From Schmidtea polychroa (Eukaryota), in assembly GCA_044892525.1 (NCBI GenBank), contig CM097885.1, positions 18,912,001 through 18,976,000 of the forward strand: 64,000 bases of DNA, written 5' to 3'. Below are positions 17,360 through 64,000 of the stretch, one piece after another. The notes below the pieces were generated by a model. That model was given only the letters and a program-made list of their open reading frames with translations, made no database searches and had not been told where the DNA came from. Within the stretch, counting starts at the first letter, position 1; every line of letters starts with the position of its first letter. The translations under genes were made by a program, and so were the position numbers.

Positions 17360-18811
17360 AGTAGGTAGTTATGTGCACTCTAGATCCAGATACCCCCCCT
17401 GTTTTTTTTAAAAATTTTTTTTAAAAGACCCCCCATAATTTTTTTTTAAAGACCCCCCTTTTTTTTAATTTTATTTTTTTGTTTTAATCATCGATTACGT
17501 AATAATTTTATTTTTTGTTTTAATCATCGATTACATAAAATTTTTGTTTTAATTATTGATTACGTAATATTTTAATTTGTTTTAATTACCGATTATGTAA
17601 CAATTTAAAAAATTTTTAAAACGTTGATTACGTCATTGATTTTAATTTTTTATAAGAATTTCTTATGTCATTATACTTGAAATTTAATTCTCTGTTAAAT
17701 GAGACTATGATGTAATCAAAATTCTGAAATTTCATTTTTAGTACACCATTTTTTAAATTTACACATCTTTTTAAACAAATTGAGATATGTTCACTCAAAC
17801 AATATATAGATAGAATTTTAATCTCTATAAAATGACATCATTATTTACTTCAAATTCATAATCATAACACCTTAAATAATGTATTTTTCAGCCAACTTTT
17901 ACATACACACATATTTTCAACTTTTAAAAAATACAAATTATTCATCTATACTTAACTCATAGTAAATAATTATATTAAAAGACATATTAAAAGATGTATT
18001 AAAAACTAAACATTTATTAAAATCCCAGAGAAATTCGAGCACTATCTAATTTCCAAATCGGTGATATGACATCTTTCTCATCCATTTTATATCCCTGTAT
18101 TGAAATATTTACAAACCAGCTTTCCCCATCTTTATATTCAATTTCTTCAAAGGCATCATGAAAACGAGAATTTTGATTGTTGATGATTATATTTCCATTG
18201 CAACTTAGATTCTTATTGATTTTCCCCAACACTTTATTTACTGCAACAACATCTTCTTTTGTTATATGAGCAATGAAACTTGAATATTGCGACTTGATCA
18301 ATTTGACTGCATTTGAGAATTTATATGGAATTTCGTCTACCAAGAAATATATCTTATGGTTATGATACATTTGTACTGGTTTCACATCATTCTTGGCATG
18401 CTTCGTCTCAGTTTTTTTCTTAATTGGGCTTGTTTCTTTCAATAAATTAGAAAATGTTTTCTCACCAAAAACGTTCTTCTTGGATTGCATTTTTTAAAAA
18501 TAATGACTATGATGTCATTTTATCTCTCTTTTATACTTGTGTATAACCAATCAAATTAATGCATTTGTATTGCAAACAACATGCATGTGTCATTGACCTT
18601 CGTGTGTGACCTTTGTATGTGACCTTTACCTTTGTGACCTTTGTATGTGAGTCATACATGGTTTGCATATGTATTGCAGATGTATTGCAAATTAGTTAAT
18701 TAAAACGTGTACTAATTAGTGTGATATTAAAAATATTATACTAATACATGTAACATAAAAATACTATAACAACATAAAAATAGTGTACTATCACCAGTAA
18801 CAATATAAAAT
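17360..18811. repeat. Left terminal inverted repeat of the Maverick (~1.45 kb)
   Basis: Near-identical reverse complement of ~35240-36660. Confidence 0.95.
18017..18490 (-). CDS. 157-aa protein encoded within left TIR (unknown; possibly OB-fold SSB-like)
   Basis: Intact ORF duplicated at 35561-36034 with 3 aa differences. Confidence 0.75.
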   Translation of the reverse strand: MQSKKNVFGEKTFSNLLKETSPIKKKTETKHAKNDVKPVQMYHNHKIYFLVDEIPYKFSNAVKLIKSQYSSFIAHITKEDVVAVNKVLGKINKNLSCNGNIIINNQNSRFHDAFEEIEYKDGESWFVNISIQGYKMDEKDVISPIWKLDSARISLGF

Positions 18812-22683: not shown

Positions 22684-22719
22684 ATAGAAACAGTTTTTTC
22701 ACTATTTTACCAAGCAATA
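22680..22719 (+). pseudogene. First 13 codons of probable minor capsid (penton) gene, cut by LTR insertion
   Basis: MNRNSFFTILPSN matches the FxxxLPSN N-terminus typical of Polinton minor capsid proteins and follows the integrase. Confidence 0.6.
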
Positions 22720-23534
22720 TGTTCATTTTTAAAGTCAATATCGCGAACAATGATTTTATTTTTGGATAACAATTTGTCCAGGTCTATAATCGAAGATACC
22801 GCCATCATTGAACATCCTAATGGCCGCCTTGGTGCCGATTGGGAATGGAATTGAGCCATATCCGCCATAGAACGCCATATCCTGTCGCAAGGCATTTCAT
22901 ATCCATGTTTATATCTAAATCGAGCTGCTTCCATTTGTGCACGACATACTTGAGATCGACAATCAGGGATCATACCAATCATAACGCCTCCAGTACTTTC
23001 AGTAATATTAAACAATCTCGTAGCTGAACTCATCTCAATCATTTTATCGGGAACTTTTCCTTTCGCATATACAACAATAATTCCATCTAAATCAATAGTT
23101 CTGATTTTAAAGTCAACTCCAATTGTGCTTCTGCATTGTTCAGTATAAGTATCATCTTCCAATTCGGGATTCATTTGATTATTGGCAACGTCCGGTTTCG
23201 AAACAAATTGTTAATTCCAATTATAATCACAAAAAACTTCTAGAACCAAATAACGAAACTTCTCCCAGTAAAACAATTTCACCAAAAAATTTTTAATTCC
23301 ACTAAAATCCTTTTAAAGCAATTAATCCAGCAAAATCAATTTAATTTACCAACCATTAATTTCTCTCGCGTTTGCGTGCGCACACCCACAAGAATCGGTC
23401 TAACCAGACCGCGCACACAGACGTGAACACAAAAAGCCAAACAACACCCACAACTATATGCGTCTGTGTGCGCCCACAGCCAACAACACAAGGATAGTAA
23501 AAGGCGCACACAGACCCGAACATCGAATTAAACA
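22720..23534 (-). repeat. 3' LTR of element 1 (815 bp) containing Rab1/PSMA6 chimeric ORF
   Basis: 22720-23291 matches 29407-29978; I saw one substitution (23032/29719). ORF starts at 23174. Confidence 0.93.
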
Positions 23535-26500
23535 TCCTCCCCCCTTGACACTTTGGTGTCAATCTCACATCCCCATTAACTTCTCCTTCTTTTGTGATCA
23601 AGCATAATTTAGATATGCATCTTAATACCTCCTTTCCTTCACATTTTATCCTCATCACGCGTAGCTTTCCGTCTTCTCCCGGTATCACTTCGATTACTCT
23701 CCCCATTGGCCACTTCCCATACTCATTCCTTTTGTCTAAAACCCACACTGTTGACCCTGTCTTGACATCATCTTCTATCTTATTCCATTTCGCCCTTTGC
23801 CGCCAGCACGGGACCAATTCTTTCATCCATCGCCGCCAGAAGTGCTCGGTTAACTCCTGAATTCGTCTCCACCGAAACATCGTACATGACATTTTCTTCA
23901 CTTCTATATTTTCCACAGCTTCTCCTTTCCAACCGGCAATTAATAAATGATTTGGAGTTAGCACAGCGTCTTCCTTACTGTCTACTGCCTGAACCACTAA
24001 GGGCCGAGAATTTATCAACATTTCAGCCCTTGTCAAAACATTTCCCAATTCTTCGTCGGTCACATCTGCACTTGTCAGTAAGGCATTCATAGCTCGCTTT
24101 GCCGATTTGATCATGGACTCAAAAACTCCCCCAAAATGCGGTGCTGATGGAGGATTGAAGATCCAACTACATTGATGCTTCGACAACTCTCTTTGAGTTT
24201 TATAGTTGTCGATTACAAAATTCTTTACTGTAGAAGTGGCGCCTATGAAATTTGTGCCATTGTCTGAGATCATCAATTTTGGCATCCCCCGCCTCGCTGC
24301 AAACCTCATAAACGGTCGAATGAATGAGTCTGTGTCCAACCCATATGCCATTTCAATATGCACCGCCCGTGACTTTAAACATACGAATAGGCAAATGTAC
24401 CTTTTATTTCTCACCTTTCCTCTGCCTACTTTAGTTTCAAACGGTCCTGCAAAATCTACTGCCGAGTGAACAAAGGCTCTAAAAGGTTCTGAAACTCTGA
24501 ACGCCGGTAACGGTGCCATTATTTGACTCATTCCTTTAGCTTTTCTTTTTCTACACATTCCGCAATCTGTCTCACATTGTTTGATCATTACTTTGGCCTT
24601 CAAAATCCAATATTTTTCGTTCAACACACTTAAGACATGTTGAGTTCCTGCATAATGGCTCAAACTTTCATGGCAATCTTTGATGATTAGTCTGGTGACC
24701 CAACTCTTGTCCGATAGAATTATTGGATATTTTGTCTCCCATGGTAAATTCTTTGCATGAATTATGCGGCTATTACTTCGTAACACAGTCATCTCATCTA
24801 AAACTGGTGTCAACTTTAACAAACGGCTTCTGATATCTACCCTTTCATTCTTGATAAGTCGTGCCAGGTCCTCAGAGAAAAACTTCGCCTGCTCTCCTTT
24901 AATTACATTGAGTTCCATTCTTTTAAGCTCCTCAGTTGTCAGTTGCCCTGTGGTTCTTTGGGACTGTGTCGTTCTCGTGTTCAAAATAAATCGCTCCACC
25001 CAGGCCCGCACCCTGATCAATCTCTGCCATGAGGAAAAGGTTTCTACTTTGAAACAGTCCGTGTTCCCTATTCGTCTTTGCCCATCTACACACGCCATCA
25101 TTGTTATTCCCTTTCGCAACTCCTTTGTTACACTGGATTGGTTTAACTCCGTCGCTGGCCAATTTCCCATTGGTTCTAGTAGAAATTTCGGTCCCTCCCA
25201 CCACATGGTGCTGTTTATCAAATCCGATGCCGATAATCCTCTTGTGATCAAATCCGATGGATTTTCACTTGTTGGAACATAATGCCATTGCCCAGGTTTG
25301 GTCATTTCTTGAATGAACCCAATTCGATTAGCTACGAATGGCTTGAATAGTCTCGAATAATTTCGAACCCAATGTATTACGTCTTTACTATCGGACCAGA
25401 ACCATATCTCACTCATCGGTTTCCCGAGCACTTCTGAAACCCGTCTTGCTAATTTAACTCCAGTACACGCGGCCATTAATTCCAACCTTGGTATACTTAT
25501 AATTTGCACTGGAGCTACCTTTGCCCTTGACGCAATTAACACACTTTTAGGTCCCACCATAGTTTCTTCCCGTAGATATATAGCTGACCCATATGCGGTG
25601 CTTGACGCATCGGAGAAGACATGTAATTGCCATTCATTTTTCATTTGAGTCCTTAAACATCTCGCAATTCGCAGATCTCCGAAATTATTTGTGTCCTCTA
25701 CCCACTTGTGTATTTCTTTATTCAACTTTGGAGGTAGCTTTTCGTCCCAATCAAGCCCTGACAACCACAACTTCTGAATAATCTTTTTCCCTATGATTAT
25801 GAATGGGCCTAACAGTCCCAATGGATCAAAGATTCTTGCCACTATGCTCAATACCTTTCTTTTCGATAAACATTCCTCATTCGGCAGATCTACTTGAAAA
25901 CTAAATTCATCGTCTTCCGAGTACCATTTCAAACCTAGGGTCTTGACGGCCATTGTCGTTTCCTTTTCAATATTCAGTGTTTTAGCTCGTTCTTCAATTG
26001 GGATTGTCGCCATAATTCTTTCCGAGTTGGACAGCCATTTTCTAGGCCGCATTCCGGCATTGCCCCAAACTGTTTCTAGCCCCTCTTTCAGCCTCATTCC
26101 TTCTTCTTCAGAATCAACAGAGTCCATGGTGTCGTCCATATACGTAGACTTGCAAATAGATTCTGTCACTTTTGGGTAGTCCTTTTCAAATTTCTTTGCA
26201 TTCTCTTGCGCGACTAGCTGGGCAAGGAATGGAGATGCATTAAGACCAAACACTAACCGATTAAACTCATACTTAATAATTTTCCCCCCAGTTGACCATA
26301 AAAATCGATGATATTTCCTGTCTTCAAGAGCCATTCTTATTTGCAGATACATTTCTGCTATATCACAAACAACAGCTACGGAAAATCGACGAAAACGAAT
26401 TAAAATATCAAAAACTTCATTTTGTAATTTTGGGCCAACTTCCACCATATCATTAAGTCCCACCCCATTACACCTGGCTGCCGCATCAAACACAATACGC

Positions 26501-27146
26501 ACTTTCGTGGTGTCCTTATCTCTTCTAACCACGGGAAAGTGTGGTAATATCCATTCCGAATCTCCAGGCATCATTTTCTCTTTTACAATACTTATATAAT
26601 CTTTTTTCAGGTAACCATTCAAAATATCCTGATACTCAGTTCGTAAGTCTTCCTTTTCAAGCCTCTTGTCCAAACTTCGCAGTCGACTTTCTGCCATTTT
26701 TTCACTATTGGGCAAAGCTGTTGGTGACTCTTTCCATGGCACTCTTACCTCGAAATGTCCGTCTACTTTCTTCATCTCAGATTTGGTTTTCTCATAAATC
26801 GCTTGGTCTTTCACTGCAAATATATTTTCCTTTAAGCCGCTATCATCAATTTCCCAAAATCGCTCCATCTGTCGTTGCAAATCCTCGCCATTACCGAAGA
26901 ACGTTCGTATGAAATTGCTTTGATGGTTCCAAGTTCTTCCCACCGAGGTTCTTCCCACACATGTCAAGCCAAGTGGCGTTAAACGGGCAATCGGTTCATC
27001 CAACTTACCATCGATTTCTTTGAGTGCTCGTTGAAGCGTTAAATAATCCGCGCCAATTAACACTTCAACTGCCTGTCTCTCGTCTAGCATCGGAAAATGG
27101 ATGCCCTTCAGGTGAGTCCACTTATGTTTTTCTCTGGCCCAATTTA
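23356..27146 (-). CDS. BEL/Pao Pol (end of protease region, RT, RNase H, integrase)
   Basis: KVRIVFDAAA, CDIAEMYLQI, FGLNASPFLA, YMDD, FSDASSTAYG, IPRLELMAA, VDFAGP, SDNGTNF, GGVFESMIK. Separated from gag by a 1-nt frameshift near 27150. Confidence 0.95.
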
Positions 27147-29861
27147 CTACCTCATTTCTCCCGTGATATTTGTTACGGCCAGTGCGTTGAAGTTTTTCGT
27201 CAATCGGCCGTCATTACTAATTAACTTCATGGTCACTGGAGTAGCCATCATTTGTTGGACATTACCTCCGATAACCCCTATCGGTGTCCTCTTTTCCACC
27301 CCTTTTAACCCAAGCTCCTTTAAAATTCTTAGATTGATGTAGCTTACTGAGCTTGCATCATCTAACAGTGCATTGACTTTTATTTTCTTGTTCCCATTTT
27401 CCAGGTAGATTGGAATTGTTCTTAAACTAAGGTAAGGTCTTAGGTTTTTCTCGTTCATCCCTTTCTGGGTCAGCATCGTGTTGTTACCTTTTTCACTCTC
27501 CTCACTAATTTGTCTTTCATGTAATAATTCGTTGTGCCTTTGCTTACATCCGGTAACCTTGCAGAAAGATTCTTTACGACATTCCTTGGCCATGTGATTT
27601 CTTTTGAAGTAATTCCTGCACAGTTTCTTTTCTTCGATGACTTTCTTCCTTTTAGGAATTGTGAGTTGCTTGAACTTGTCACATTGGTCTAGGTAATGTT
27701 GACCACCACAGTGTACACACTCTGATCTATAGCCGTTAGAGTTATTCACCTGTATAACTGTTCCACTTTTAACTCTGCCATCTGGTTGCCCCGTAAAATG
27801 CGTCCGACCTCCAGGATTGAATCTTTCTCTTCCCCTAGACACCCCTTCTACTCTTGACCCATCATAAGCCCTGGTGCTTGGTTTAGTCCCATACACAACC
27901 TCGTTAGTGGACCTTAGGATCTCCGCTTCTTGTTGTATCCATCTTCTCAAATCCTCTATTGTCTCCCGCAATTCCTTTTCTATTTTGTCTTTTTTCCATT
28001 TATACACAAGATTCGTCGTTAACTTGCCCAAACACTTTTGAAAAAGATAGCCAGTCTTTAACTCGGATTCTTTCCCAGTGGATTTAAATCGCACGGTGAC
28101 CGTTTCTAATAATCCAACAAATGAGTCTAGATCCTTCAAATCTCCTTCTCGAATTGGCCTGAACTGTTCCATCTCCTCTAACATTGATAAATATATCCTT
28201 TCATCCCCACCATATCGCCTATCCAACTTCTCTTTTGCCATTTGATAAGCCTCTGCCGAATATCCAAGATTTTCAATTAACTTTAATGGCTCTCCGTGAA
28301 GGTACTTGTGCAGGTGAAACATCTTTTCAACCTCATCACCTTCCGCTTCGTCAACACATGCAGTAAAAGCTGCTTTCCATGGTTCGTAATCTTTCATCTT
28401 GCCTTCAAAAACAGGGATTGTAATTTTCTGTAGACTTTCCAGTTTTCTTTTATGCCCGGAATTATTCTTCTTGATGGTATCATCATTCACATTTTCCTTC
28501 TCTTCCATAAAAGATTGATTTGCTTTTCTTTCCATCAATGCCCCAATTATTTGATGTTTTTCCTCGATCTCTTGCAGGTCTTTATCTAAGATTGCAGTGA
28601 TGTCCAATCTTTGCAATTTTTTACTGATTGTTCTCAGATCCCCTAATTCTTCATCTAGACTCTCCTTTTGATCTTCATATTCCGCCAACCATTCGCTAAC
28701 ATCCTTCCCATTTATATCATTGAGAATCTTGTTTCTTAATCTCGTTAATTTTCCTTTTTTCATTCTCTTTTTCCACAGTCCTTCTTCTAAAATCTCTTCG
28801 TCATTGCCCCCGCACAGCCTGAGTGACAAATGAAGTGTCGACCCTACTTGTATCCTATAATCATTCAATCTTCTTTTATTTTCTAACTGCTTTCCTGCGT
28901 ATACTAACATTTGATAATTTTCCGGAATTCCTTCTTTGTCCTGGATTTTTCCTTTTATCTTTTCAATTGTGTCCTTCCATTTAACGTCCAGAGTAATTGT
29001 CTTACCAGTAAGAGTTTTGACAAATATTTGACTTTCCCATCGCAACTCAAAACCCATTACCCCGCTCGCCCTCACCCTTGACTCAGCTCTGTTATTTACC
29101 CTGTTCCCCTGGCTTCCCCCTTTAAAAGAGTGCTGGGGCCCATAGCAGCACTTTCCCACGCTCGGTAGGGAAGGGAGGATGTTTAATTTTACAAAAGTAT
29201 TATAATATATACATAATATGCGTGACCACAAACAAGATTCTTTATAATACATATTAATTACCAAAATATTATTAATTACAAAAATATTATTAAACACATA
29301 ATAAACATAATATTTACATAATATATATAAAACCAAAAAAGACATTTTATAATACATATTAATTACCTTGTTCCGGCTGGCTAGCCGGAACCACGCTCTG
29401 CTACCATGTTCATTTTTAAAGTCAATATCGCGAACAATGATTTTATTTTTGGATAACAATTTGTCCAGGTCTATAATCGAAGATACCGCCATCATTGAAC
29501 ATCCTAATGGCCGCCTTGGTGCCGATTGGGAATGGAATTGAGCCATATCCGCCATAGAACGCCATATCCTGTCGCAAGGCATTTCATATCCATGTTTATA
29601 TCTAAATCGAGCTGCTTCCATTTGTGCACGACATACTTGAGATCGACAATCAGGGATCATACCAATCATAACGCCTCCAGTACTTTCAGTAATATTAAAC
29701 AATCTCGTAGCTGAACTCGTCTCAATCATTTTATCGGGAACTTTTCCTTTCGCATATACAACAATAATTCCATCTAAATCAATAGTTCTGATTTTAAAGT
29801 CAACTCCAATTGTGCTTCTGCATTGTTCAGTATAAGTATCATCTTCCAATTCGGGATTCAT
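27147..29861 (-). CDS. LTR-initiated polyprotein: host-derived leader - ubiquitin - Gag - aspartic protease
   Basis: Rab1 and PSMA6 fragments, read-through of the PBS ([14 protein letters not shown]), ubiquitin 28806-29033 ending LRLCGG, Pao-type Gag (IPVFEG..YEPW), Cys/His knuckles, protease ALLDDASS. Confidence 0.88.
29389..29406 (-). promoter_or_regulatory. Primer-binding site complementary to initiator tRNA-Met 3' end
   Basis: TGGTAGCAGAGCGTGGTT directly after the LTR's CA; metazoan tRNA-iMet ends ...CTCTGCTACCA. Confidence 0.85.
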
Positions 29862-29978
29862 TTGATTATTGGCAACGTCCGGTTTCGAAACAAATTGTTA
29901 ATTCCAATTATAATCACAAAAAACTTCTAGAACCAAATAACGAAACTTCTCCCAGTAAAACAATTTCACCAAAAAATT
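29407..29978 (-). repeat. 5' LTR of element 1, lacking ~243 bp of U3
   Basis: Identity to the 3' LTR stops at 29978; no terminal TG or TSD. Confidence 0.9.
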
Positions 29979-35239: not shown

Positions 35240-36660
35240 TTTTTATATTGTTACTTGTGATAGTACACTATTTTTATGTTGTTATAGTATTTTTATGTTA
35301 CATGTATTAGTATAATATTTTTAATATCACACTAATTAGTACACGTTTTAATTAACTAATTTGCAATACATCTGCAATACATATGCAAACCATGTATGAC
35401 TCACATACAAAGGTCACAAAGGTAAAGGCCACATACAAAGGTCACACACGAAGGTCAATGACACATGCATGTTGTTTGCAATACAAATGCATTAATTTGA
35501 TTGGTTATACACAAGTATAAAAGAGAGATAAAATGACATCATAGTCATTATTTTTAAAAAATGCAATCCAAGAAGAACGTTTTTGGTGAGAAAACATTTT
35601 CTAATTTATTGAAAGAAACAAGCCCAATTAAGAAAATAACTGAGACGAAGCATGCCAAGAATGATGTGAAACCAGTACAAATGTATCATAACCATAAGAT
35701 ATATTTCTTGGTAGACGAAATTCCATATAAATTCTCAAATGCAGTCAAATTGATCAAGTCGCAATATTCAAGTTTCATTGCTCATATAACAAAAGAAGAT
35801 GTTGTTGCAGTAAATAAAGTGTTGGGGAAAATCAATAAGAATCTAAGTTGCAATGGAAATATAATCATCAACAATCGAAATTCTCGTTTTCATGATGGCT
35901 TTGAAGAAATTGAATATAAAGATGGGGAAAGCTGGTTTGTAAATATTTCAATACAGGGATATAAAATGGATGAGAAAGATGTCATATCACCGATTTGGAA
36001 ATTAGATAGTGCTCGAATTTCTCTGGGATTTTAATAAATGTTTAGTTTTTAATACATCTTTTAATATGTCTTTTAATATAATTATTTACTATGAGTTAAG
36101 TATAGATGAATAATTTGTATTTTTTAAAAGTTGAAAATATGTGTGTATGTAAAAGTTGGCTGAAAAATACATTGTTTAAGGTGTTATGATTATGAATTTG
36201 AAGTAAATAATGATGTCATTTTATAGAGATTAAAATTCTATCTATATATTGTTTGAGTGAACATATCTCAATTTGTTTAAAAAGATGTGTAAATTTAAAA
36301 ATGGTGTACTAAAAATGAAATTTCAGAATTTTGATTACATCATAGTCTCATTTAACAGAGAATTAAATTTCAAGTATAATGACATAAGAAATTCTTATAA
36401 AAAATTAAAATCAATGACGTAATCAACGTTTTAAAAAATTTTAAAATTGTTACATAATCGGTAATTAAAGAAAATCACAATATTACGTAATCAATAATTA
36501 AAACAAAAATTTTACGTAATCGATGATTAAAACAAAAAAATAAAATTATTACGTAATCGATGATTAAAACAAAAAATAAAATTAAAAAAAAATTATGGGG
36601 GGGGGTCTTTTAAAAAAAACAGGGGGGTATCTGGATCTAGAGTGCACATAACTACCTACT
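35240..36660. repeat. Right terminal inverted repeat of the Maverick
   Basis: Reverse complement of 17360-18811. Confidence 0.95.
35561..36034 (+). CDS. 157-aa protein in right TIR (second copy)
   Basis: Near-identical to 18017-18490. Confidence 0.75.
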   Translation: MQSKKNVFGEKTFSNLLKETSPIKKITETKHAKNDVKPVQMYHNHKIYFLVDEIPYKFSNAVKLIKSQYSSFIAHITKEDVVAVNKVLGKINKNLSCNGNIIINNRNSRFHDGFEEIEYKDGESWFVNISIQGYKMDEKDVISPIWKLDSARISLGF

Positions 36661-37449: not shown

Positions 37450-39024
37450 ATTATGGGCCCCAGTAATTTGTTTAGATGCAGATAAAGAATGCTCAAACAC
37501 CCGGAAGTTATGATATTCAAAAGGAATCAGCAACTCATTTAGCCTTTTCACTACGAAATGGGATGCAAGTATTCATTAAAACCCTCACAGAAAATGATTA
37601 CTCTTGAAGTTGAGTCTAGTGATACCTTTAAAATTATAAAATTTCATATATAAAATAAAAAATGTATTTCACCTCATCAACAAAGCATAATTTTCTCAGG
37701 TAGATAATTAGAAGATGAAAGTAAAATACTGGATTATAAAATTCAAAAAGATTCAACTTTACATTTAGTTTTACTGCTAAAGTGAGGTAGTGGGGAAGAA
37801 GGTTTAAAGAATTAAATGCTCAAGATGTCATCAAAGGTGTCATTACCGCATCACCAGATTGAAAAACCAATTAAAGTTGGACATGAAAAACAAGAATGCC
37901 AACCAGGTTTACGAAAAATATGGTAATGAATTTGAGACAGTGTCCGACTGGCTCAAGAATTTGAAGGATACCGTAGAGAATTTAGGAAAAATAGTTAAGA
38001 AATTGAAATATGAACTGAGTGAGCAAATTGATCACAGTAAGAATCACAAGACAGGATTATCTATGAATTTAAGCACGAGACAGAATATGTTCTAACCTTA
38101 GAAAAAATGAAGAAGTAAAAAGTTGAAAGAATATACCTTTTAAAGATCTACCTTCGATCGGGCGTGCAGAAACTTTCTTTATGATTTCAAAGCTTTTAGG
38201 CCAATTAGAACAAGGAAAAACTATAAACATAATCCATTTTAACAGAAACCTTGATTGTTAGGTTAGAGGCCATGGAAAGGAGCGCTGAATTGGATCGTGG
38301 CTTCATTCACAAAAGATTAATCCAGAAGATGACGAAATGAATGCAAGATGAATCAGCTATTGCATTAAAGAATTGCAGATAAAGTAAAGAAGATGGAGTC
38401 GAGAATTTGCAAAACTGGTTGTAAGAAAAATTACAGAGAATGATATTAATCGAAGAGATCAAACAAAACAGACTATTATAAAAGTCATATGATGAGAAGA
38501 ATCTCGAAAGATCTTCCTATTCAGAATCAAGGTCTCATTTAGTTTTAGATGAAACATAAAAATAATGTAGAATGTTTTTATTAAGCGGAGACCGCTTGAA
38601 AAAGAATTTCTAACATCTTCAAAGGTACAGTAAAAAATCAAAAGTACGGAATTGATGAAAAATCACCATCTGGATGACTGCAGCAGAGATAAATACCTTT
38701 TATTGCTTTTAATACTTGAGATAAAAGGTATTCAAAACCGAGTCATAAAATCCGTCTGTATTTTTGAGTATTTCAGAAAATTATTTGGACCTACGGGAGA
38801 AATTGAATAAGCCTAGGAAAGTCCTCGTTAAACTAGAAAATGGAAACAGGCACATTATAGAAAATTCCTTGTTGAATGATGCCTGTAGGATAAGTTGCCT
38901 CAGTGATCGTGCAGCAGCAAAACTTAATTTTAAAGGAAAGAAAATCACCACACCAATAAAAGTCGTTAGTGAAAAAATTAATGGTAACTGCGATCCTATT
39001 GTAAGATTGACACCTCTGGGCTAG
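37450..39024 (+). mobile_element. Degenerate BEL/Pao relic (element 3) with tandem ubiquitin - Gag - protease remnants
   Basis: [37 protein letters not shown]...LDYKIQKDSTLHLVL (37509-37790, with stops and a frameshift); protease remnant LENGN..SLLNDACRIS and PIVRLTPLG matching elements 1 and 2. Confidence 0.8.
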
Positions 39025-54628: not shown

Positions 54629-56670
54629 CAATGAAAATAATTGTTATCATGATACGAAACTTAATTTCGATTTTTTAGATGATGAATTCCAAGTTTTCCA
54701 TAACCATTCGAAACGGAAATTCTTTTGATATGTCTTTATTATAAATTCTCTGAATGGCTTCTATAGAATTTATGATAACACGTTCTTTAATTAGCATTAA
54801 CTTGTTTGGATAGATGCAGGTAAATATTATAATATTTATTGACTAATTTCAATGACATATTCATAAGTAGCTAAGAGTAACTTAATATTTAGAATTAAAT
54901 TACATAAACATTAAAACAATTAAATAAAACACACGGTAAATTTCACTAATTCACTAGAAAAGTAATAATAAAAAACATTTTTTGTCTTCATTCTCAAACG
55001 ACAGCAGATCAATTTTTAAAATTTAGACATTTGTTTAAATTTATAGAATTTATTGATATATAATTTTATTAAAATGAAAATAAAATAAATTGAAAATAAT
55101 CTATCAACGGTGAAGAAAATAAAGTATTTTTCATGGTAAAATAAAAATTCTTATTTCTTATTGTAAAATGATAAATTTAGGATCTAAAATTTATTCAAGC
55201 ATCAAAGGATGCTGTTAGCCCAGGGCGCTTAAATATCATCGCACAACCCCGATTTCTGCACTTTTTAATTAAAATAATCTAATCTGATGAAAGAAAATAG
55301 AAAGAAAACAGTTAAAATAAATCAATTTTATTGTCCAATTGAAAAAATCTGAAAATTCTTTCCGGGAAACATTTATGTATATTCAATAAAGCGATTTAAA
55401 TATCACTAATTTCAAGTGTAAATAAAAATTTATTTTTTCTTTTATCTTTTGAAATAAGAAATCATGTTAAATAAAAAAATCTCCATTGTAAATTTAATTT
55501 CATAGCCTGCAAATCAACTGTCACAAAACATTTATGAAATGACAGAATAAAACAGGCCTACATTTATTTTATCCCACCATGTTCCCACAAAAATTAAATT
55601 TAGGAAGGTAATTTTATTTTTCATTAAATTATCATTTTCATTCCAATGGAAATTAATTACTCAATTAAATTAATTAATTAATCAACTAATTAACATTAAG
55701 CGTAGAGGCGGCAAATGAATTTTCATTCCAATGGAGTCTGGAAAATGTGATAATTGATGATAGTGTAATAAAATCTGACAATTGAAATGCATGATAAATT
55801 ACATTATTAAATTAATACTACTTTTCTTTAGAGAAGCAGTTTCCAAACTTTTTCATTCCAAGATCGGTAAATGGTGTAAAATTATTTTTCCGAACCGGAG
55901 ATATAAGAAAAACAAGAAAGTATATGACAAAATTAAATATATATTCAAATATATTTATTATATATTGATAAATTCCGATAAATATTTTGTTTTAATTACC
56001 TGTAATGTTGATAATGGTTTCCCACACGGATATGGCTGTACGTTGTAAAATAACTTAATATTAATTTCACAGGTTTAGCGCTAAGCTCTGGATATTCGTT
56101 CTTCATAAAAATCCAAATGTGCATCGAAATAGCTAATTTCAATTTTGATAGCAGAAGGTAACTTTATTAAACCTTGTTTAATGTTCGAAAGGAACATATT
56201 TGTTCTGATAAACTCGATCTGGTATTGTGCATCATATTCTTTCGAAGCATCAACTAAAAGTCTCCGACTTGATTCATCAAATAGTAATAACTCATCTTCG
56301 GGAATAACGGCAAGCATAAATTCCAATTTGTAGAGATTCATGTCCCAATTTCCATGCTTCTGCTACAATTTTATTGTTCTAAGATATAGAAATTCATCTT
56401 TGGATAATGGATCAACTATCCTTTTAAAGTCAATAATGTCTGAAACTTCAACTGATTTGACTTTATTAAACTTCATTTGATCAAGATTTAATTTCCATAC
56501 GATTACATAACCACATAAATCCGCACTTACAAGGAATGAGTTAATTTCGTTATTGATTCTGAATGTCCATATAATATATCAATTGGCTTGACATCTTCTA
56601 AACTCCATGCAATTATAGTATCATTCATTCCACCAGTGAAGCAACTCTCGATTTATTGTCCCAAACTAAT

Positions 56671-57443
56671 TGTTTCAACCAGCCAGAGGGGATTGCCTCT
56701 GACTGGCATTTATTTGGCTTTTTCTATCGCGTCTGTGTGCGCGGTCTGGTTAGACCGATTCTTGTTGGTGTGCGCACACAGACGTGAGAAGTAGGTTTTG
56801 ATTGTTGTAATTTTTTATAAATTGTAGTTTGTTTTAGAAATTATTGATTCGACGAATTGTTGGAATTAAATAAGATTTGGTTTGTTTAAAACGGGATTGG
56901 TGGAGGATTTTTGAATCGAAATTTGGAGTGTTAAAGTTCCTTTGTTAAAATGGCTTCAGGTGTGAAATGTGATCCTTCAGTTGAAGAATATCTTAACAAC
57001 TTTAAATTAATCGTATCGATTGTCACGGAACTTTCACAGTCGTTGCCATAATTTTTCATGATTATGCATGGGATCGAGTCTTCTAAATTCACAGATAAGT
57101 TCGTCAATAAAAGCAACGATATTGTATTATGCATTCGTGAGGAAATAACATTGAATCATGCTATGTCGGATCTTTCAAATCGATTTGTTTGCAAAACGGA
57201 AATCAGAAATTATTTCATTGAAGAATTATCCAACCGATTTTCTCAGTTGTCCGAAGTAAAACATTTGGTTAAGTCGAAGTTTGAAATCGCGCGTGTGCTT
57301 CGACGGAAACAGCTACTGGATAAGATGGCATTATCTGATGATATCGAAATGGACAAGACATCATTCAAACCTGATCGACGTGGCCCTGTAGAGGCGGAAA
57401 ATAAAATCTTGAAAATTGTCAATCGTTTTTTTGGAATAAAACA
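56671..57443 (+). repeat. 5' LTR of element 2 (773 bp)
   Basis: Matches 60930-61704; I count ~5 substitutions and 2 single-base indels. Confidence 0.95.
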
Positions 57444-59941
57444 TGGTAGCAGAGCGTGGTTCCGGCTAGCCAGCCGGAACAAGGTATTATTGAGATTTTT
57501 TAGGAATGATATTTGTATGTATTATATTTTATTTACATGTGATAATTTTGAAACATTTCCCCTAGGGCCTGCCCTCCCTAACCCCATTAGAGGTGGATTG
57601 GCGCGGGTATTTGTCAACATATTAACAGGGAAGACAATTACTCGAAGTTGAATCTAGTGACACGATAGAAAATGTTAAAGCGAAAATACAAGATAAAGAA
57701 GGTAGTCAACCTGACCAGCAACGATTAATTTGCGCGGGAAAACAATTAGAAGATGAGCGAACATTATCTGATTATAATAGTCAAAAGGAGTCTACTTTGC
57801 GTTTAGTTTTGCGATTGAGGGGTGGAATGCAAATATTCGTGAAGACATTGACAGGAAAAACAATAACTTTGGAAGTAGAATCAAGTGATACTATTGAGAA
57901 TGTAAAGGCTAAAATTCAAGAAAAAGAAGGGATACCCCCAGGGCGGCAAAAACTTAATTTTGCCGGGAAAGTATTAAAAGATGGCTTAACGTTATTAGAT
58001 TATAACGTTAGGAAAGAAGCCACGGTACATCTGGTTTTGGGGCTGGCAGGGGGAAGTCCAGTATCAGATGCGGAGTTCGAGGCAGGTTACAAGAGACGAA
58101 CCGGGTGAAAGATTTCGTTAGGGCGTCTACGTAACCGGGTCTTAGGAGATGGATCGGACCCTGGGTAAGAACAAAGGAGAATGGAGGCATACGAAGATAA
58201 GTATGAGGAAGTCATAAACGAATTGGAGGAGCTGAGAAATAATGCTCGGAAGTTAGGGCGGGAGAATGAAGAAAAGGAAATTGAGGCAGATCTGAAACGG
58301 TTAGAAGCGGATTTCAGCAGAATCGGTGATCTGGTCCTCACGCAGAAGGAAGAGAGTTTTAGAGTAGAGTCGCGGAAGGGCACAGAAAAATCATTTAGGA
58401 GCGAAGAGCCCAATGAGAAACAGAAGTGCATAATGGGTTTGAAACTCTTGCAGCTGCCGATCTTTAATGGAAAGGTAATGGAATATCCTGGATGGAGGGC
58501 AATTGTGAGAGCCTGCATCGAGGACACGGATGAGCCGAGTGAGAGAAAGTACTTGTACCTGAGACAGTACTTAGAAGGGAAGCCGCTGCAATTAATTGCC
58601 TATATTGGATATGGGTCGCAGGCTTTCGAGGCGGCGATGAAATTACTTGATGAAAGGTATGGGGGACCAGAAAGGTCCTATTCCATGATGCTGGATGCGG
58701 TGCAGAGGTTCTTCCCAGTGAGGCTCAACGTCTTGGAGGACCTAGAGCGGTTTAAAGAGCTGCTAGGAAACCTCACCCTGAATTTCAAAGAACAGAAGAG
58801 GGAAGGCGAGTTGAACAACGGAATGTTGTATCACCAACTGCTGAAGAAGCTGCCAGAGACCATGCTGATTCAGTGATCACGCCATTGTGATTCGGGGAGA
58901 GAAGGAAATGTACAAACGCTAGCCGAGTGGATCAAAACGGAAGCGAATAGGCATCGGCAAGCAATGAGCATTCTGTTTGGAGAAGGGCGGACAAAAGGTA
59001 GAACTGTCGCCCCAACAACTAACTTCGGAAATGCGAATAGGGGCACGAATTTTACGGATAGTAGGAGAAAGATAGAGGTTAGCAGTGCTCGAAAAAAGGA
59101 ACCAATTTGTGTGAAATGTGGTTCCGAACATTATTTAAATCAATGTTCAGAGTTTCTAAAGTTGAATATTAAGGAACGAAATGAGTTTGTGACCACGAAG
59201 CGGCTTTGTTACAATTGTCTTACAACAGCTCACATGGTTAGAGAATGCGAAAAACCGAGCTTTTGTAAGGACAGAGATTGTACTCGAAAGCATCACAATT
59301 TGCTCCATGGCTCAGAGAATAAAGTTGATGGAGATCAAGAGCCGAGCAATGAGAACACATCAATGATGACGGTTCAAGATAGCCAGAGTCAGAAGATGTA
59401 TGTTCCTTTACGAACGATTACAGCAAAGTTGATTAATAAAGGAAAGGAGATCAAGATCAACGTATTGCTAGACGACGCAAGCAATGTTAGCTATATTAGC
59501 GATTGGGCGGCGCAAGAACTGGGGTTGGGAGGACAGTGTCAAAGCACTCCAGTTGGCGTGATTGGTGGACAATCACAAATGTTGGAAACGAAGCCAGTAA
59601 CGGTATTATTGGCAAGTAACAATAACAATTTAAAGGTAAATTTGAACGTCCTGGTGGTAAAAAAGGTCACTGGAGACCTGGAAATGTGTAACTGGAGGAA
59701 GTTATCGACGAAATGGAAGCATCTGCGATATATAAACTTCCCGGTTATGAATACAAGGACGCAGATTGATGTATTGATTGGTTCTGATTACCCATATTTA
59801 CATCGATCTATTCGCGAAGTAACAGGAGCAAAGCATGAACCAATTGCAAGGTTGACGCCCCTCGGATGGACATGTCTTGGTAGGATTGCAAGAAATCAAG
59901 CTCCAAGATGTTCGCATTTGGCTCAGAGTTATTTTGCGTAA
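56950..59941 (+). pseudogene. LTR-initiated leader - di-ubiquitin - Gag - protease, disrupted
   Basis: MASGVKCDPSVEEYLNNFKL start (stop at 57049), frame continues through PBS to [18 protein letters not shown]; Ub1 ~57601-57826 (frameshift ~57642), Ub2 57827-58054; Gag with frameshift/stops ~58105, 58166, 58874; CxxC..H..C knuckles; VLLDDASN. Confidence 0.85.
57444..57461 (+). promoter_or_regulatory. Primer-binding site (tRNA-iMet)
   Basis: TGGTAGCAGAGCGTGGTT, identical to element 1. Confidence 0.85.
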
Positions 59942-60888
59942 CGGAAATGTTAAACGACGGAGAAATGATTATTCATGATGTAGATAATTCTGAAGAAATG
60001 GATTATATTAAAGAATGTGATGAAAATGATGAAACACATGAAAACAAAAATGCTAGCGAAGATGGAGATAGTGAAAGCAATGAATGTGATAATTTACAAT
60101 CTAACGATATTATAAATCAAGAGGAAATAGAGCAAAATCGAGTCAATGAAAACGAGAATAAGTATTCTGAATTTGTAAAAAATAATACTGAACTATTAGA
60201 CAACGATTTTGATAAAGGAGACCAAGTTACAGCAGATGAATTAGAAAGTATTGTCAAAAGTCACAATCAAGAAGAAAATCTTGAAAGTAAATATAATGAA
60301 ACTGAAGTAGATGTGTCAGACAAGAATGAAAGTCATAATAGTCATTTAGGCACAGATGTTGTCGACATTAATGTTATCGAAAGACCGAATTCTTTGGTAG
60401 TAGATAATTTTCAAAACATGGAAGACGTAGTTAATGTTCAAGCGGATTCTGCTTCCTCAGAAAATCATTTAGAAACTGATCGAATTATGCCAGATTCTGA
60501 GAGCAATGACAGTGATCTTAGTGTCGACATTGTTAAAGATCATACATCCGACACAGCTAAAGATTCTGAACAAAATACATTTACTCAACCAACGTCTGCT
60601 TTAGATGATATCATTGAAGACTATTCACCTGGTTCCCCTTCATTAAATGAAATGCAACAGGGAAAAGTGGGGACTATTGAATTGGCGAAAAATGAAGAAA
60701 GAGGAATGGAGATATTGCACCTAAGCAAAATGAACAGTGACAGGGGCTTGGTCAAGTATGGCGATGGTGGGAGGACAATCCACCATGATGTATCAAGAAA
60801 GGTGCGTGGTGTGGCGGCCTACACCATAGAAAGATGGGTGTGTGAGGGGTATTGGAGAGAGGCAAAAAGAAAGGTTCCCCTGAAGTAA
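59938..60888 (+). CDS. Acidic low-complexity ORF replacing pol in element 2 (likely captured)
   Basis: Over 300 open codons rich in D/E/N/S with AT-rich codons, starting where RT should begin. Confidence 0.55.
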   Translation, partial: VTEMLNDGEMIIHDVDNSEEMDYIKECDENDETHENKNASEDGDSESNECDNLQSNDIINQEEIEQNRVNENENKYSEFVKNNTELLDNDFDKGDQVTADELESIVKSHNQEENLESKYNETEVDVSDKNESHNSHLGTDVVDINVIERPNSLVVDNFQNMEDVVNVQADSASSENHLETDRIMPDSESNDSDLSVDIVKDHTSDTAKDSEQNTFTQPTSALDDIIEDYSPGSPSLNEMQQGKVGTIELAKNEERGMEILHLSKMNSDRGLVKYGDGGRTIHHDVSRKVRGVAAYTIERWVCEGYWREAKRKVPLK

Positions 60889-60929
60889 TTGGGTGGTTGA
60901 TCCGCTAGAAGGGATCAAGGAGGGGGAAA

Positions 60930-61704
60930 TGTTTCGACCCGTCAGAGGGGGATTGCCTCTGACTGGCATTTATTTGGCTTTTTCTATCGCGTCTGTGTGC
61001 GCGGTCTGGTTAGACCGATTCTTGTTGGTGTGCGCACACAGACGCGAGAAGTAGGTTTTGATTGTTGTAATTTTTTATAAATTGTAGTTTGTTTTAGAAA
61101 TTATTGATTCGACGAATTGTTGGAATTAAATAAGATTTGGTTTGTTTAAAACGGGATTGGTGGAGGATTTTTGAATCGAAATTTGGAGTGTTAAAGTTCC
61201 TTTGTTAAAATGGCTTCAGGTGTTAAATGTGATCCTTCAGTTGAAGAATATCTTAACAACTTTAAATTAATCGTATCGATTGTCACGGAACTTTCACAGT
61301 CGTTGCCATAATTTTTCATGATTATGCATGGGATCGAGTCTTCTAAATTCACAGATAAGTTCGTCAATAAAAGCAACGATATTGTATTATGCATTCGTGA
61401 GGAAATAACATTGAATCATGCTATGTCGGATCTTTCAAATCGATTTGTTTGCAAAACGGAAATCAGAAATTATTTCATTGAAGAATTATCCAACCGATTT
61501 TCTCAGTTGTCCGAAGTAAAACATTTGGTTAAGTCGAAGTTTGAAATCGCGCGTGTGCTTCGACGGAAACAGCTACTGGATAAGATGGCATTATCTGATG
61601 ATATCGAAATGGACAAGACATCATTCAAACCTGATCGACGTGGCCCTGTAGAGGCGGAAAATAAAATCTTGAAAATTGTCAATCGTTTTTTTTGGAATAA
61701 AACA
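60930..61704 (+). repeat. 3' LTR of element 2 (775 bp)
   Basis: Follows PPT AAGGAGGGGGAAA; ends AAACA. Confidence 0.95.
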
Positions 61705-64000
61705 CTACTGATAAAACAACATTCAAATGACCACTCAAAACAAATTCATCATATTCATTATCCTTAGCATTTTTAAATTCCATATCATTTTCCATTTCGA
61801 AATTAATCATCAACGAATTTAAAAATTTTTATTTTCAAAAAATCCACAAAACTTACAAAATTTAAACAAGTCCCTTTTTCCAACAAAACTTCTAATACTT
61901 CATAAAACTCCAAAAAATTTTCAGCCAAAAAAAATATCAACCAATCATAAATTCCAAAATTACACTGTTTGCGTCTGTGTGCTCATACAAAAAAACAAGC
62001 CCATCTCCAAATCCAACGCGCACACAGACGCGAATTAACGTCAGGATTGACCAAACCTCTTTTCTATAAATTTTTGTTTCAATTTATTGAATTTAATTTC
62101 TAGTTAAGACATTATTGGATCTTGAAAAAAGCAGTGCCTAAAATTTGTGAATATCAAAAAAACATAGATATATTTACTGATTCATAGTCAAGCTTTTTAT
62201 TCTCTTAATTAAACATATCTTTTGACAAGACATTATTGAGACATCTTAAACATTTCAAAAACTTCAACAAATTTTTAAATAGTTTGGAACTTATTTCCGT
62301 AACAGCATAATAGTTGTGATCTTGTGATAAAAATAAAACTTATGAAGCGGAGTTTCTTATTCTGATCAAGAACACGAAGAATTGAATCCTCAACTCTTTC
62401 CTACTTTTCCTTTCTGTTTCCCTCTGCAATATTTTAATAAGATTAAATTCAAGTTGAATTTAAATTTCATAATTTTAAAATCGAAATTAACAATTGACCC
62501 CAAAGCATTTTTGAAATGTTCATTGTAGTCGTTAAATTTTGGTTCAATACAATTGAAAACGAATAAAAAGTGAAATATTCGGCGGTTTCAAATTTTTATA
62601 GATAAAAAATCGATCTATAGTTGTAATGAAAATAAATGACATATTTATAAATGACAACGAAAACAAATAAAATTCAATAACTACATCTCTATAAATAAAT
62701 ACTGATTGTTAATAAATTTTTGACCTTGTTGAGATAATTTCTTTCTCGAATTAATCTGATACATGATTCGTTTTACTCATTAAATATCCTTTGCCTTTGT
62801 TTTTTTTAATTTCTTACCATCGTTCATAATATTAAATAAACGAAAAGATTGCATGCAAAAAGGATCAAATGTCTAGAAATCCTAAAAAAAACATTACATT
62901 AAGTCTGAGAGGCTGTTGAATGTAATTAAAAGATTTGCAGATCGTAGCGGGTAAATATCATAAATGCATTGAAGCGTGATCTTGTTGTTGAGAAAAACTC
63001 TTTGAATATCATTTTTCAATACAACCGAAATCAATAAAAAAATTTTTTTGCAAATAAATTTGACTTAGACTTTTAAATTTATTATTCTAAAATAATTTTT
63101 ATAATATTAATTAATCTTTTAAAATTAATAATTTAAAATATAAATTAAAAAATTTATAAAAGATTTTTTTTTATTTATTCAAATGGATTTGTTTCGTGAT
63201 TGCATCACTGTCTCGAGAAAAGTTAAAACAAAAATTGGAATTTCTTCAAATTTTGCCAGACTTCGACGATTGTTATTACTGTAATTGTGATCACAGATTT
63301 TCTTTTATCTAACCAGTTTTAGTTGACAGGAAAATGACTAAATTTATTACATAAGATTAAATCTCTCATGACAAATTTACACGTTAAAATATTAAATCAA
63401 ACGTCAAATTTGGGAATTTTTCAAAAAAATAATAAATTCATTAAGATTTAAATTGTAAAAATTAATATTATTAAAAAATTAAATTTATTGAAAAAATACT
63501 AAACATTTTTTTATAAGCTGCGAGGAGAATTTGTCTCACAATTACAGCCATTTTTGGTGATCTATATGAAATTTCAAACAAACACTTGAAAAGGCAATAC
63601 CGAAAATTTGTGTTCAATAAATACAAATATTATTCTAACACCCGAAAAAAGAAATTGAAAATATTGATTGTAATAAACTTTACTTTATAATAATGATAAT
63701 AACAATAATAATAATTATAAAAAACACTATTATAATAATATCTTAATAATTTTATATTTTAATAATTATTATCCAAACCAATTAAATAATAAACTTTTCC
63801 ATAAAATCCAATTCTTCGGAGTAAAAATAAAATTTTTTTTTAATTTTCATAATTCATTTGAGATTATTGAAAAATATGAACAAAATCTGACTATGATTTG
63901 TAAAACACAAAAAATAATCTTAAAATCCCCAAAGAATAGAAACCATAATTTTCATAACATATTTGAGTTTATGATAATATATAAAATATAAATGCAAACA

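What the first reader, a model, noticed from the sequence alone, without database searches (positions are those of the whole stretch)
56950..57443. Element 2 LTR has different cargo starting with a cofilin/ADF-like N-terminus
MASGVKCDPSVEEYLNNFKL resembles the ADF/cofilin start (MASGVxV...), again beginning at what looks like a host initiator Met. It continues in the same frame, past one TAA present in both LTRs, into unidentified coding-like pieces. The position (between shared U3 core and PBS) equals that of the Rab1/PSMA6 cargo, suggesting an exchangeable cassette.
Basis: partly seen in the sequence, partly recalled or inferred. Interest (0 to 1): 0.72.

Follow-up and report, generated by a model that had tools for sequence, protein, structure and literature searches.

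The report
Retrotransposon LTR borrows cofilin start codon
The terminal repeats of a jumping gene in this animal genome carry the first 20 codons of a cofilin gene joined to other gene-like scraps, and the element family likely uses this borrowed start to translate through to a ubiquitin-tagged capsid protein.

Summary
Confirmed. Both LTRs of a young, pol-less BEL/Pao element hold an ORF from ATG 56950 with one stop. A 302-nt contig from a probable RNA run fits 56942-57009 (4 differences), then continues in frame as QHRFQYVIFG, in gap-free register with published ADF/cofilins. The donor is therefore a cofilin gene, probably the host mRNA's 5' end. This ATG is the first in the LTR (0 in 279 nt; 0 of 2000 shuffles as low), and the frame runs through the PBS into the start of ubiquitin-Gag. 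The stop is private to this copy's lineage. The cargo is a mosaic: a second, unidentified piece overlaps the cofilin piece by 7 nt, and other contigs join the cofilin start to other spacers and cargo, also in a second organism. Likely mechanism: template switching onto co-packaged mRNAs builds a disposable leader that supplies Gag's start codon and is cut off at ubiquitin's Gly-Gly. Translation, cleavage and RNA-level capture are inferred. The scan already saw this architecture elsewhere in this genome with other cargo; my paper searches did not find it.

The parts
56671..57443 (+). 5' LTR of element 2 (TG...CA, 773 nt)
   Evidence: 7 differences in 775 columns to the 3' LTR; flank CTAAT at 56666-56670
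60930..61704 (+). 3' LTR with the same cargo and the same stop (61309-61311)
   Evidence: flank CTACT at 61705-61709 (4 of 5 match to the left flank)
56679..56787 (+). Two predicted hairpins; the second (56727-56787) is the core shared with element 1 and two other units in the window
   Evidence: fold; motif hits; 89-90% over 81 nt to element 1
56790..56949 (+). T-rich, C-poor, ATG-free leader; its last part likely derives from the cofilin 5' UTR
   Evidence: loose ends before 56940-56942 resemble 56910-56941 by eye
56934..57009 (+). Cofilin/ADF-derived piece: end of 5' leader, ATG 56950 and codons 1-20
   Evidence: contig X16 record fits 56942-57009 with 4 differences and continues as QHRFQYVIFG; register with Table I of PMC2132522
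57003..57331 (+). Middle cargo piece, donor unidentified; overlaps the cofilin piece by 7 nt (57003-57009); holds the stop at 57049-57051
   Evidence: X12 contigs of 2181 and 1643 nt fit its two ends and run on into other sequence; no database match
57332..57443 (+). Tail of the LTR ORF with AATAAA at 57400; variable among sister contigs
   Evidence: weak likeness to element 1's tail (37 of 2000 shuffles, region chosen after looking)
57444..57461 (+). Primer-binding site, read through in frame; likely complementary to initiator tRNA-Met (recalled)
   Evidence: 47 nt identical to element 1 at 57440-57486; no tRNA gene in the window to test against
57601..58054 (+). Two ubiquitin units, each ending in Gly-Gly; the first begins in the frame of the LTR ORF and has a frame break near 57640
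   Evidence: Pfam PF00240, E 9e-50; frames
58055..59941 (+). BEL/Pao-type gag and protease, broken by stops (58106-58108, 58166-58168, 58874-58876)
   Evidence: DUF1759 E 3e-8, DUF1758 below cut-off; 36% identity over 638 columns to element 1
59884..60888 (+). Acidic low-complexity ORF where RT, RNase H and integrase would be; unassigned
   Evidence: no Pfam family; no match to element 1 pol
60908..60929 (+). Polypurine tract
   Evidence: sequence

Best explanation
Both LTRs of this pol-less BEL/Pao element carry a mosaic ORF that begins with the 5' leader end, start codon and first 20 codons of a cofilin gene, likely captured from host mRNA by template switching and likely used by intact sisters as the translation start of a leader-ubiquitin-Gag polyprotein. 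Shown: the cofilin origin, the mosaic junctions, the first-ATG position and the frame through the PBS into ubiquitin. Inferred: reverse transcriptase, copying from the PBS towards the 5' end, jumps onto co-packaged mRNAs at short matches (7 nt at the one junction seen from both sides), so that new pieces end up in both LTRs. Selection keeps an AUG-free leader, one start codon and an open frame. Host deubiquitinases would cut after Gly-Gly and free Gag, which makes the leader's content largely interchangeable. This copy cannot make that polyprotein; as the stop is in both LTRs it predates insertion, so the copy was likely mobilised in trans.
For: Contig fit and cofilin continuation: 8 of 28 and 9 of 28 residues identical without gaps to the yeast and Acanthamoeba rows of PMC2132522 Table I (hand count). 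Summed depth over the cofilin piece is 48,486 in X8 and 556 in X16, against 14-745 and 0-27 over 57036-57431 and 92,124 and 1,191 over ubiquitin (depth is a poor expression measure). First ATG: 0 in 279 nt, shuffle mean 5.5, 0 of 2000; 58 of 2550 window stretches are ATG-free. Open frame: 1 stop in 230 codons from ATG to ubiquitin (0 of 2000 shuffles); element 1 has 0 in 150 and 0 in 126 (0 of 2000 each). Other records differ from this copy at the stop codon (X1: 21 contigs, 132,925 of 133,285 summed depth; X8, X12, X5 likewise), and X1 contigs carry an indel at the 57640 break. Modularity: X1 joints link the hairpin core to the cofilin start across other spacers; an X16 contig joins codons 1-15 to other open-frame sequence; organism B holds the cofilin start in three upstream contexts; ENA proteins P0006/P0007 fuse EAP30 to a proteasome-alpha piece 83%/77% identical to element 1's. 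Precedents: PMC5131818 (median 6-bp microsimilarity), PMC8310069 (ubiquitin as processing signal), PMC5454406 (Ty1 GAG starts before the PBS).
Against: No record spans LTR-PBS-ubiquitin, and no translation or cleavage data exist. The runs are contigs whose RNA status is a guess. Only 30 of the 136 letters beyond 57009 were shown, and DNA contigs also carry longer cofilin pieces, so the deep contig could be a repeat transcript rather than the host mRNA. Intron loss was not shown. In the contigs an in-frame ATG lies six codons upstream of the cofilin ATG (hand reading), so the donor's true start is not fixed. One of 11 junction groups has an in-frame stop. Element 1's leader has an upstream ATG near its hairpin. 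The middle piece's donor is unknown.
Confidence: 0.7

Rival explanations
1. The cofilin N-terminus is kept for its own protein function: the released leader would expose a Ser3 peptide that acts as a decoy for LIM kinase or Slingshot and alters actin dynamics in the host cell.
For: The 16-residue N-terminal ADF/cofilin 'S3 peptide' is a competitive LIMK1 inhibitor (PMC2064427 passages). Sister junctions fall at codons 15-20 or later, and the piece recurs in two organisms.
Against: Element 1 and P0006 do without it. Capture of 5' ends of abundant mRNAs gives the same pattern. No selection test on the codons was possible.
Confidence: 0.1
2. The cargo acts at the RNA level (camouflage from, or a source of, small RNAs matching host genes); the open frame is a relic of recent capture.
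For: Pieces are 94-97% identical to other contigs, so some are young; one X16 contig suggests an antisense, polyadenylated RNA over the leader.
Against: Recent capture does not explain open frames across junctions or in the PBS-to-ubiquitin linkers (0 stops in 66 and 126 codons), nor an ATG-free leader.
Confidence: 0.08
3. Capture was at the DNA level or by 5' transduction: an element inserted next to the cofilin gene took over its promoter and first exon, and the hairpin core is a host promoter motif.
For: The piece is a gene's 5' end; the intron test was inconclusive; a WD40-like unit in the window has the same hairpin-leader-ATG layout.
Against: Several unrelated donors with short overlaps fit repeated template switching better. 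Element 1's cargo is an intron-free 124-residue match to PSMA6. The hairpin sits at LTR starts in three of four units in the window.
Confidence: 0.09
4. Ordinary LTR DNA with a chance resemblance to cofilin.
For: No protein search of the piece alone finds cofilin.
Against: The independent contig continues beyond the LTR piece with the cofilin first beta-strand pattern, in register; 20 residues are too few for those searches.
Confidence: 0.02

Closest known systems
LTR-mediated retroposition in metazoans (Tan et al. 2016, PMC5131818; abstract and passages), with yeast Ty and maize Bs1 as cited there
   Same: Partial mRNA pieces, several donors in one chimera, short matches at junctions, non-autonomous spread.
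   Different: There the retrocopy replaces part of the internal ORFs; here the pieces sit inside both LTRs, supply the first ATG and are in frame with Gag.
BEL/Pao (Belpaoviridae) LTR retrotransposons (PMC3118150, passages)
   Same: DUF1759 gag, protease, TG...CA LTRs, PBS, PPT, 5-bp target duplication; element 1 has Peptidase_A17, RT and DUF5641.
   Different: Ubiquitin before Gag, host-derived ORF inside the LTR; element 2 lacks RT and integrase.
Ubiquitin insertions in cytopathogenic pestiviruses, e.g. BVDV CP Rit (PMC8310069, passages)
   Same: Captured cellular ubiquitin, preceded by another host fragment, in frame before a viral protein; there host hydrolases release the protein.
   Different: RNA virus, sporadic insertions; here a multi-copy retrotransposon layout, and cleavage is not shown.
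Ty1 TIPIRT leader (PMC5454406, passages)
   Same: GAG starts upstream of the PBS (53-nt 5' UTR, PBS at 95-104) and reads through it.
   Different: Ty1's upstream coding part is short and its own; here 165 codons of variable foreign mosaic.
Burro/GYPSM1 giant gypsy elements of planarians (PMC6431247, passages)
   Same: Flatworm LTR elements with host-like domains in the polyprotein.
   Different: Other superfamily; cargo is internal and fixed, not in the LTR.

Membership tests
ADF/cofilin (donor gene) | N-terminal (M)ASGV with Ser3 | tested here: met
   first five residues equal the human row of Table I
ADF/cofilin (donor gene) | Helix ending in N-x-x-K-L, then an aromatic/aliphatic strand ending in F, at the family's spacing | tested here: met
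   codons 16-20 plus the contig's loose end, gap-free to yeast (8 of 28) and Acanthamoeba (9 of 28); hand comparison
ADF/cofilin (donor gene) | Complete ADF-H domain (Pfam Cofilin_ADF) in the donor | not testable with these tools
   only 30 letters of the continuation are shown
ADF/cofilin (the LTR ORF itself) | Complete ADF-H domain | tested here: not met
   only 20 codons; no Pfam family for P0003; it is a fragment, not a cofilin
BEL/Pao LTR retrotransposon | Paired TG...CA LTRs, PBS, PPT, target duplication | tested here: met
   target duplication 4 of 5
BEL/Pao LTR retrotransposon | Pao-type gag and protease | tested here: met
   DUF1759 above cut-off, DUF1758 below; 36% to element 1 Gag
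BEL/Pao LTR retrotransposon | RT-RNase H-integrase of Pao type (autonomous member) | tested here: not met
   absent in element 2, present in element 1; element 2 is a non-autonomous derivative
LTR-mediated retrocopy (Tan et al.) | Short sequence match at the fusion point | tested here: met
   7-nt overlap 57003-57009; one junction only, no chance model run
LTR-mediated retrocopy (Tan et al.) | Intron loss relative to the parental gene | tested here: inconclusive
   no intron-like loose end at the ATG among 20 rows shown, 22 hidden; host locus not identified
LTR-mediated retrocopy (Tan et al.) | Retrocopy replaces part of the internal ORFs | tested here: not met
   cargo is inside both LTRs
Ubiquitin processing signal (pestivirus type) | Ubiquitin ending in Gly-Gly directly before the downstream protein | tested here: met
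   in both elements
Ubiquitin processing signal (pestivirus type) | Cleavage by host hydrolases | not testable with these tools
   needs protein data

The most novel reading that the evidence does not exclude
A flatworm BEL/Pao lineage has outsourced its translation start: its LTR is a shuffling platform that repeatedly captures the 5' ends of abundant host mRNAs (cofilin here, a Rab1-like start in element 1) by template switching within a very long R region, and a downstream ubiquitin uncouples the captured leader from Gag. The cofilin start has spread across several subfamilies and at least two species, possibly because it gives a strong initiation site and a Ser3 kinase-decoy peptide.
Probability: 0.45. 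Interest if true: 0.8.

Novelty: new variant of a known kind. Interest (0 to 1): 0.6.

Why it matters
Gene capture by LTR elements is normally described as internal cargo that disables the element. Here the captured pieces sit in the LTR, apparently under selection for frame and start codon, which would make capture part of how the family expresses Gag. It would be a natural exon-shuffling engine producing many chimeric leaders, and it gives a direct test of template switching at mRNA 5' ends. In practice, many-copy near-identical fragments of cofilin and other housekeeping genes can confound read mapping, RNAi design and small-RNA analysis in this host.

Tried and rejected
Protein searches for the cargo found nothing usable: Pfam 0 families; PDB sequences best E 0.043-0.044 to calcium-channel beta subunits and 0.049 to KIT ligand, treated as chance, none for the 20-mer and one designed protein for the 33-mer; 0 of 27 and 0 of 219 candidates in the 5.8-billion set; 0 at E 0.001 among 1.84 billion; Atlas scores 0.86 and 0.87, below a lead. 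The idea that the middle piece is a diverged PSMA6, prompted by loose ends before 57003 reading like element 1's KGKVPDK, was not supported: 560 of 3000 shuffles, HMM 531 of 2000, hhalign E 0.16 on the tail only; tail against P0004 15 of 3000 but against P0005 525 of 3000. A ubiquitin-like reading failed too (662 of 3000). Rfam: one chance match, E 0.78. No whole genome was held, so copies could not be counted. No RNA holder is on record as RNA. X12 has no cover on the cofilin piece and X13 none on 57014-57241; such holes prove nothing. One X16 loose end (before 57244) looks like a library adapter (recalled) and was dropped from the junction count. PMC2120733 gave no passage.

Full report
Setting. 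The host is an animal (RPS7 best matches metazoan chains), probably a flatworm: element 1's proteasome piece matched two cestode proteins best, and earlier scan notes call the genome planarian (not checked by me). No whole genome was held.

The element. Element 2 spans 56671-61704 (5034 nt): two LTRs with 7 differences in 775 columns, flanks CTAAT/CTACT, a PBS at 57444, two ubiquitin units, a Pao-type gag and protease broken by stops, an acidic ORF instead of RT and integrase, and a polypurine tract. It is a young non-autonomous BEL/Pao derivative. Element 1 (22719-29977, minus strand) is a relative with full pol; their Gags are 34-36% identical, and they share an 80-nt hairpin core and 47 nt around the PBS.

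ATG 56950 opens a frame with one stop in 164 codons to the LTR end (other frames 9 and 16; 1 of 2000 shuffles as low). The frame goes on through the PBS for 66 more codons without a stop (19 of 2000) into the first residues of ubiquitin, where it breaks near 57640. Element 1's equivalent frame is fully open (0 stops in 150 and in 126 codons, 0 of 2000 each). ATG 56950 is the first ATG of the LTR, with an in-frame stop just upstream: 0 ATG in 279 nt against a shuffle mean of 5.5 (0 of 2000); 58 of 2550 window stretches of that length are ATG-free. Element 1's leader is less clean: 1 ATG in 191 nt (88 of 2000).

The donor is cofilin. Protein searches with the piece alone found nothing. Laying public contigs did. 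In run X16 (RNA is a guess) a 302-nt contig fits 56942-57009 with 4 differences, then leaves; its next 30 letters read QHRFQYVIFG in frame (hand translation, phase). X8, X1 and X13 show the same continuation. Codons 3-20 followed by this continuation fall without gaps on the yeast (8 of 28 identical) and Acanthamoeba (9 of 28) rows of Table I in PMC2132522, and the first five residues equal the human row (hand count). Summed depth over the piece is 48,486 in X8 and 556 in X16, the same order as over ubiquitin (92,124 and 1,191) and far above the rest of the cargo (14-745 and 0-27). This fits an abundant host mRNA, but the tool warns that contig depth measures expression poorly, X8 and X16 belong to one study, and DNA contigs also carry longer cofilin pieces. 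So 'cofilin gene' is firm and 'host mRNA contig' is likely. The intron test was inconclusive: no intron-like loose end at the ATG among 20 rows shown (22 hidden), and I could not single out the host locus.

The stop is not shared. Records covering 57049-57051 differ from this copy in that codon: X1 21 contigs (132,925 of 133,285 summed depth), X8 and X12 one contig each, X5 5,467 of 5,490. X1 contigs also carry an indel at the 57640 break. As the stop is in both LTRs, it arose before this insertion, so a defective template was likely copied in trans.

The cargo is a mosaic. A second piece starts at 57003, overlapping the cofilin piece by 7 nt. In X12, contigs of 2181 nt (depth 12.3) and 1643 nt (depth 14.1) fit its left and right ends (57003-57040, 57196-57331) and run on into other sequence, so it may be an internal part of a longer transcript; its donor stays unidentified, and a PSMA6 reading failed its tests. 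Three X1 joints link the hairpin core to the cofilin start across other spacers; an X16 contig joins codons 1-15 to 244 other letters; organism B (X13) holds the cofilin start with three upstream contexts. Of 11 groups of loose ends inside the ORF, 10 are open in the LTR frame and 1 has a stop (hand reading of the rows shown: 24 and 20 shown, 175 and 22 hidden; one adapter-like row dropped). With 6-10 codons each this is weak support. From another source, ENA proteins P0006/P0007 fuse an EAP30/Vps36 piece (E 2e-9) to a proteasome-alpha piece 83% and 77% identical to element 1's; their DNA could not be seen, so their LTR origin is inferred.

Mechanism. Shown: cofilin origin, position in both LTRs, first-ATG status, frame continuity, modular junctions. 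Inferred: capture by template switching onto co-packaged mRNA, as modelled in PMC5131818 (abstract and passages; median 6-bp matches, several donors per chimera). An AATAAA 43 and 41 nt before the LTR end in elements 2 and 1 suggests a long R region holding the cargo; minus-strand synthesis would then cross it first, and a jump onto an mRNA's 5' end would be copied into both LTRs. Translation from the captured ATG would give leader-ubiquitin-Gag, and cleavage after Gly-Gly, as for pestivirus insertions (PMC8310069 passages), would free Gag and make the leader interchangeable. Ty1 gives a precedent for GAG starting before the PBS (PMC5454406 passages). Rivals: a Ser3 kinase-decoy role (PMC2064427 passages), an RNA-level role, DNA-level capture.

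Novelty. Gene capture by LTR elements is known; the passages I read place it in the internal region, and a 2026 plant review mentions only another retrotransposon's sequence entering an LTR (PMC13317346 passages). Passages of PMC6431247, PMC3118150 and PMC11410931 did not describe this layout. Searches turned up no paper on host-gene mosaics in BEL/Pao LTRs read into ubiquitin-Gag (listings only; the library lacks most subscription journals, and supplements were not read). What this finding adds is a donor traced to its 5' end, a junction overlap, and recurrence in a second organism. Verdict: real, a new variant of a known kind, interest 0.6.

Noticed in passing
window 62053-61705 and 56670-56175 (-): Element 2 is inserted into an intron-free, broken WD40-like ORF (Pfam E 0.12 only) with the same hairpin, T-rich leader and ATG 176 nt downstream. 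TG...CA ends with a perfect 5-bp repeat (one of 3 such hits) suggest a solo LTR with another cargo.
   Followed up: partly
window 42712-about 42096 (-): LTR-like unit starting like element 2's LTR, with two hairpin cores and decayed cargo; overlaps a 271-nt tandem duplication.
   Followed up: partly
window 22719-29977 (-): Element 1: very young (1 difference in 572 LTR columns), LTR ORF open into ubiquitin-Gag; its 5' LTR lacks the hairpin-bearing start. It sits inside a Polinton-like element (inverted repeats 17506-18810 and 35241-36544, DNA polymerase B, ATPase, integrase).
   Followed up: partly
window 37540-39020 (+): Third, heavily decayed ubiquitin-gag-protease remnant.
   Followed up: no
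P0006, P0007 (ENA): Chimeric ORFs joining an EAP30/Vps36-family piece to a proteasome-alpha piece like element 1's; they share DIVLC with element 2's middle piece (E 0.42, possibly chance).
   Followed up: partly
window 56832-56899, X16 contig: Minus-strand contig with a poly(T) loose end: possible antisense polyadenylated RNA over the leader, or a priming artefact.
   Followed up: no
loose ends before 56940-56942 (X8, X16, X13): By hand reading, the contigs have an in-frame ATG six codons upstream of the cofilin ATG, in both organisms; this LTR lacks it.
   Followed up: no
window 59884-60888 (+): 334-codon open acidic ORF (D 11%, E 13%, N 10%) in place of pol; open despite breaks elsewhere in the element.
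   Followed up: partly
window 56676-56683: Three of the seven LTR differences cluster in the first 13 bases of the LTR.
   Followed up: no
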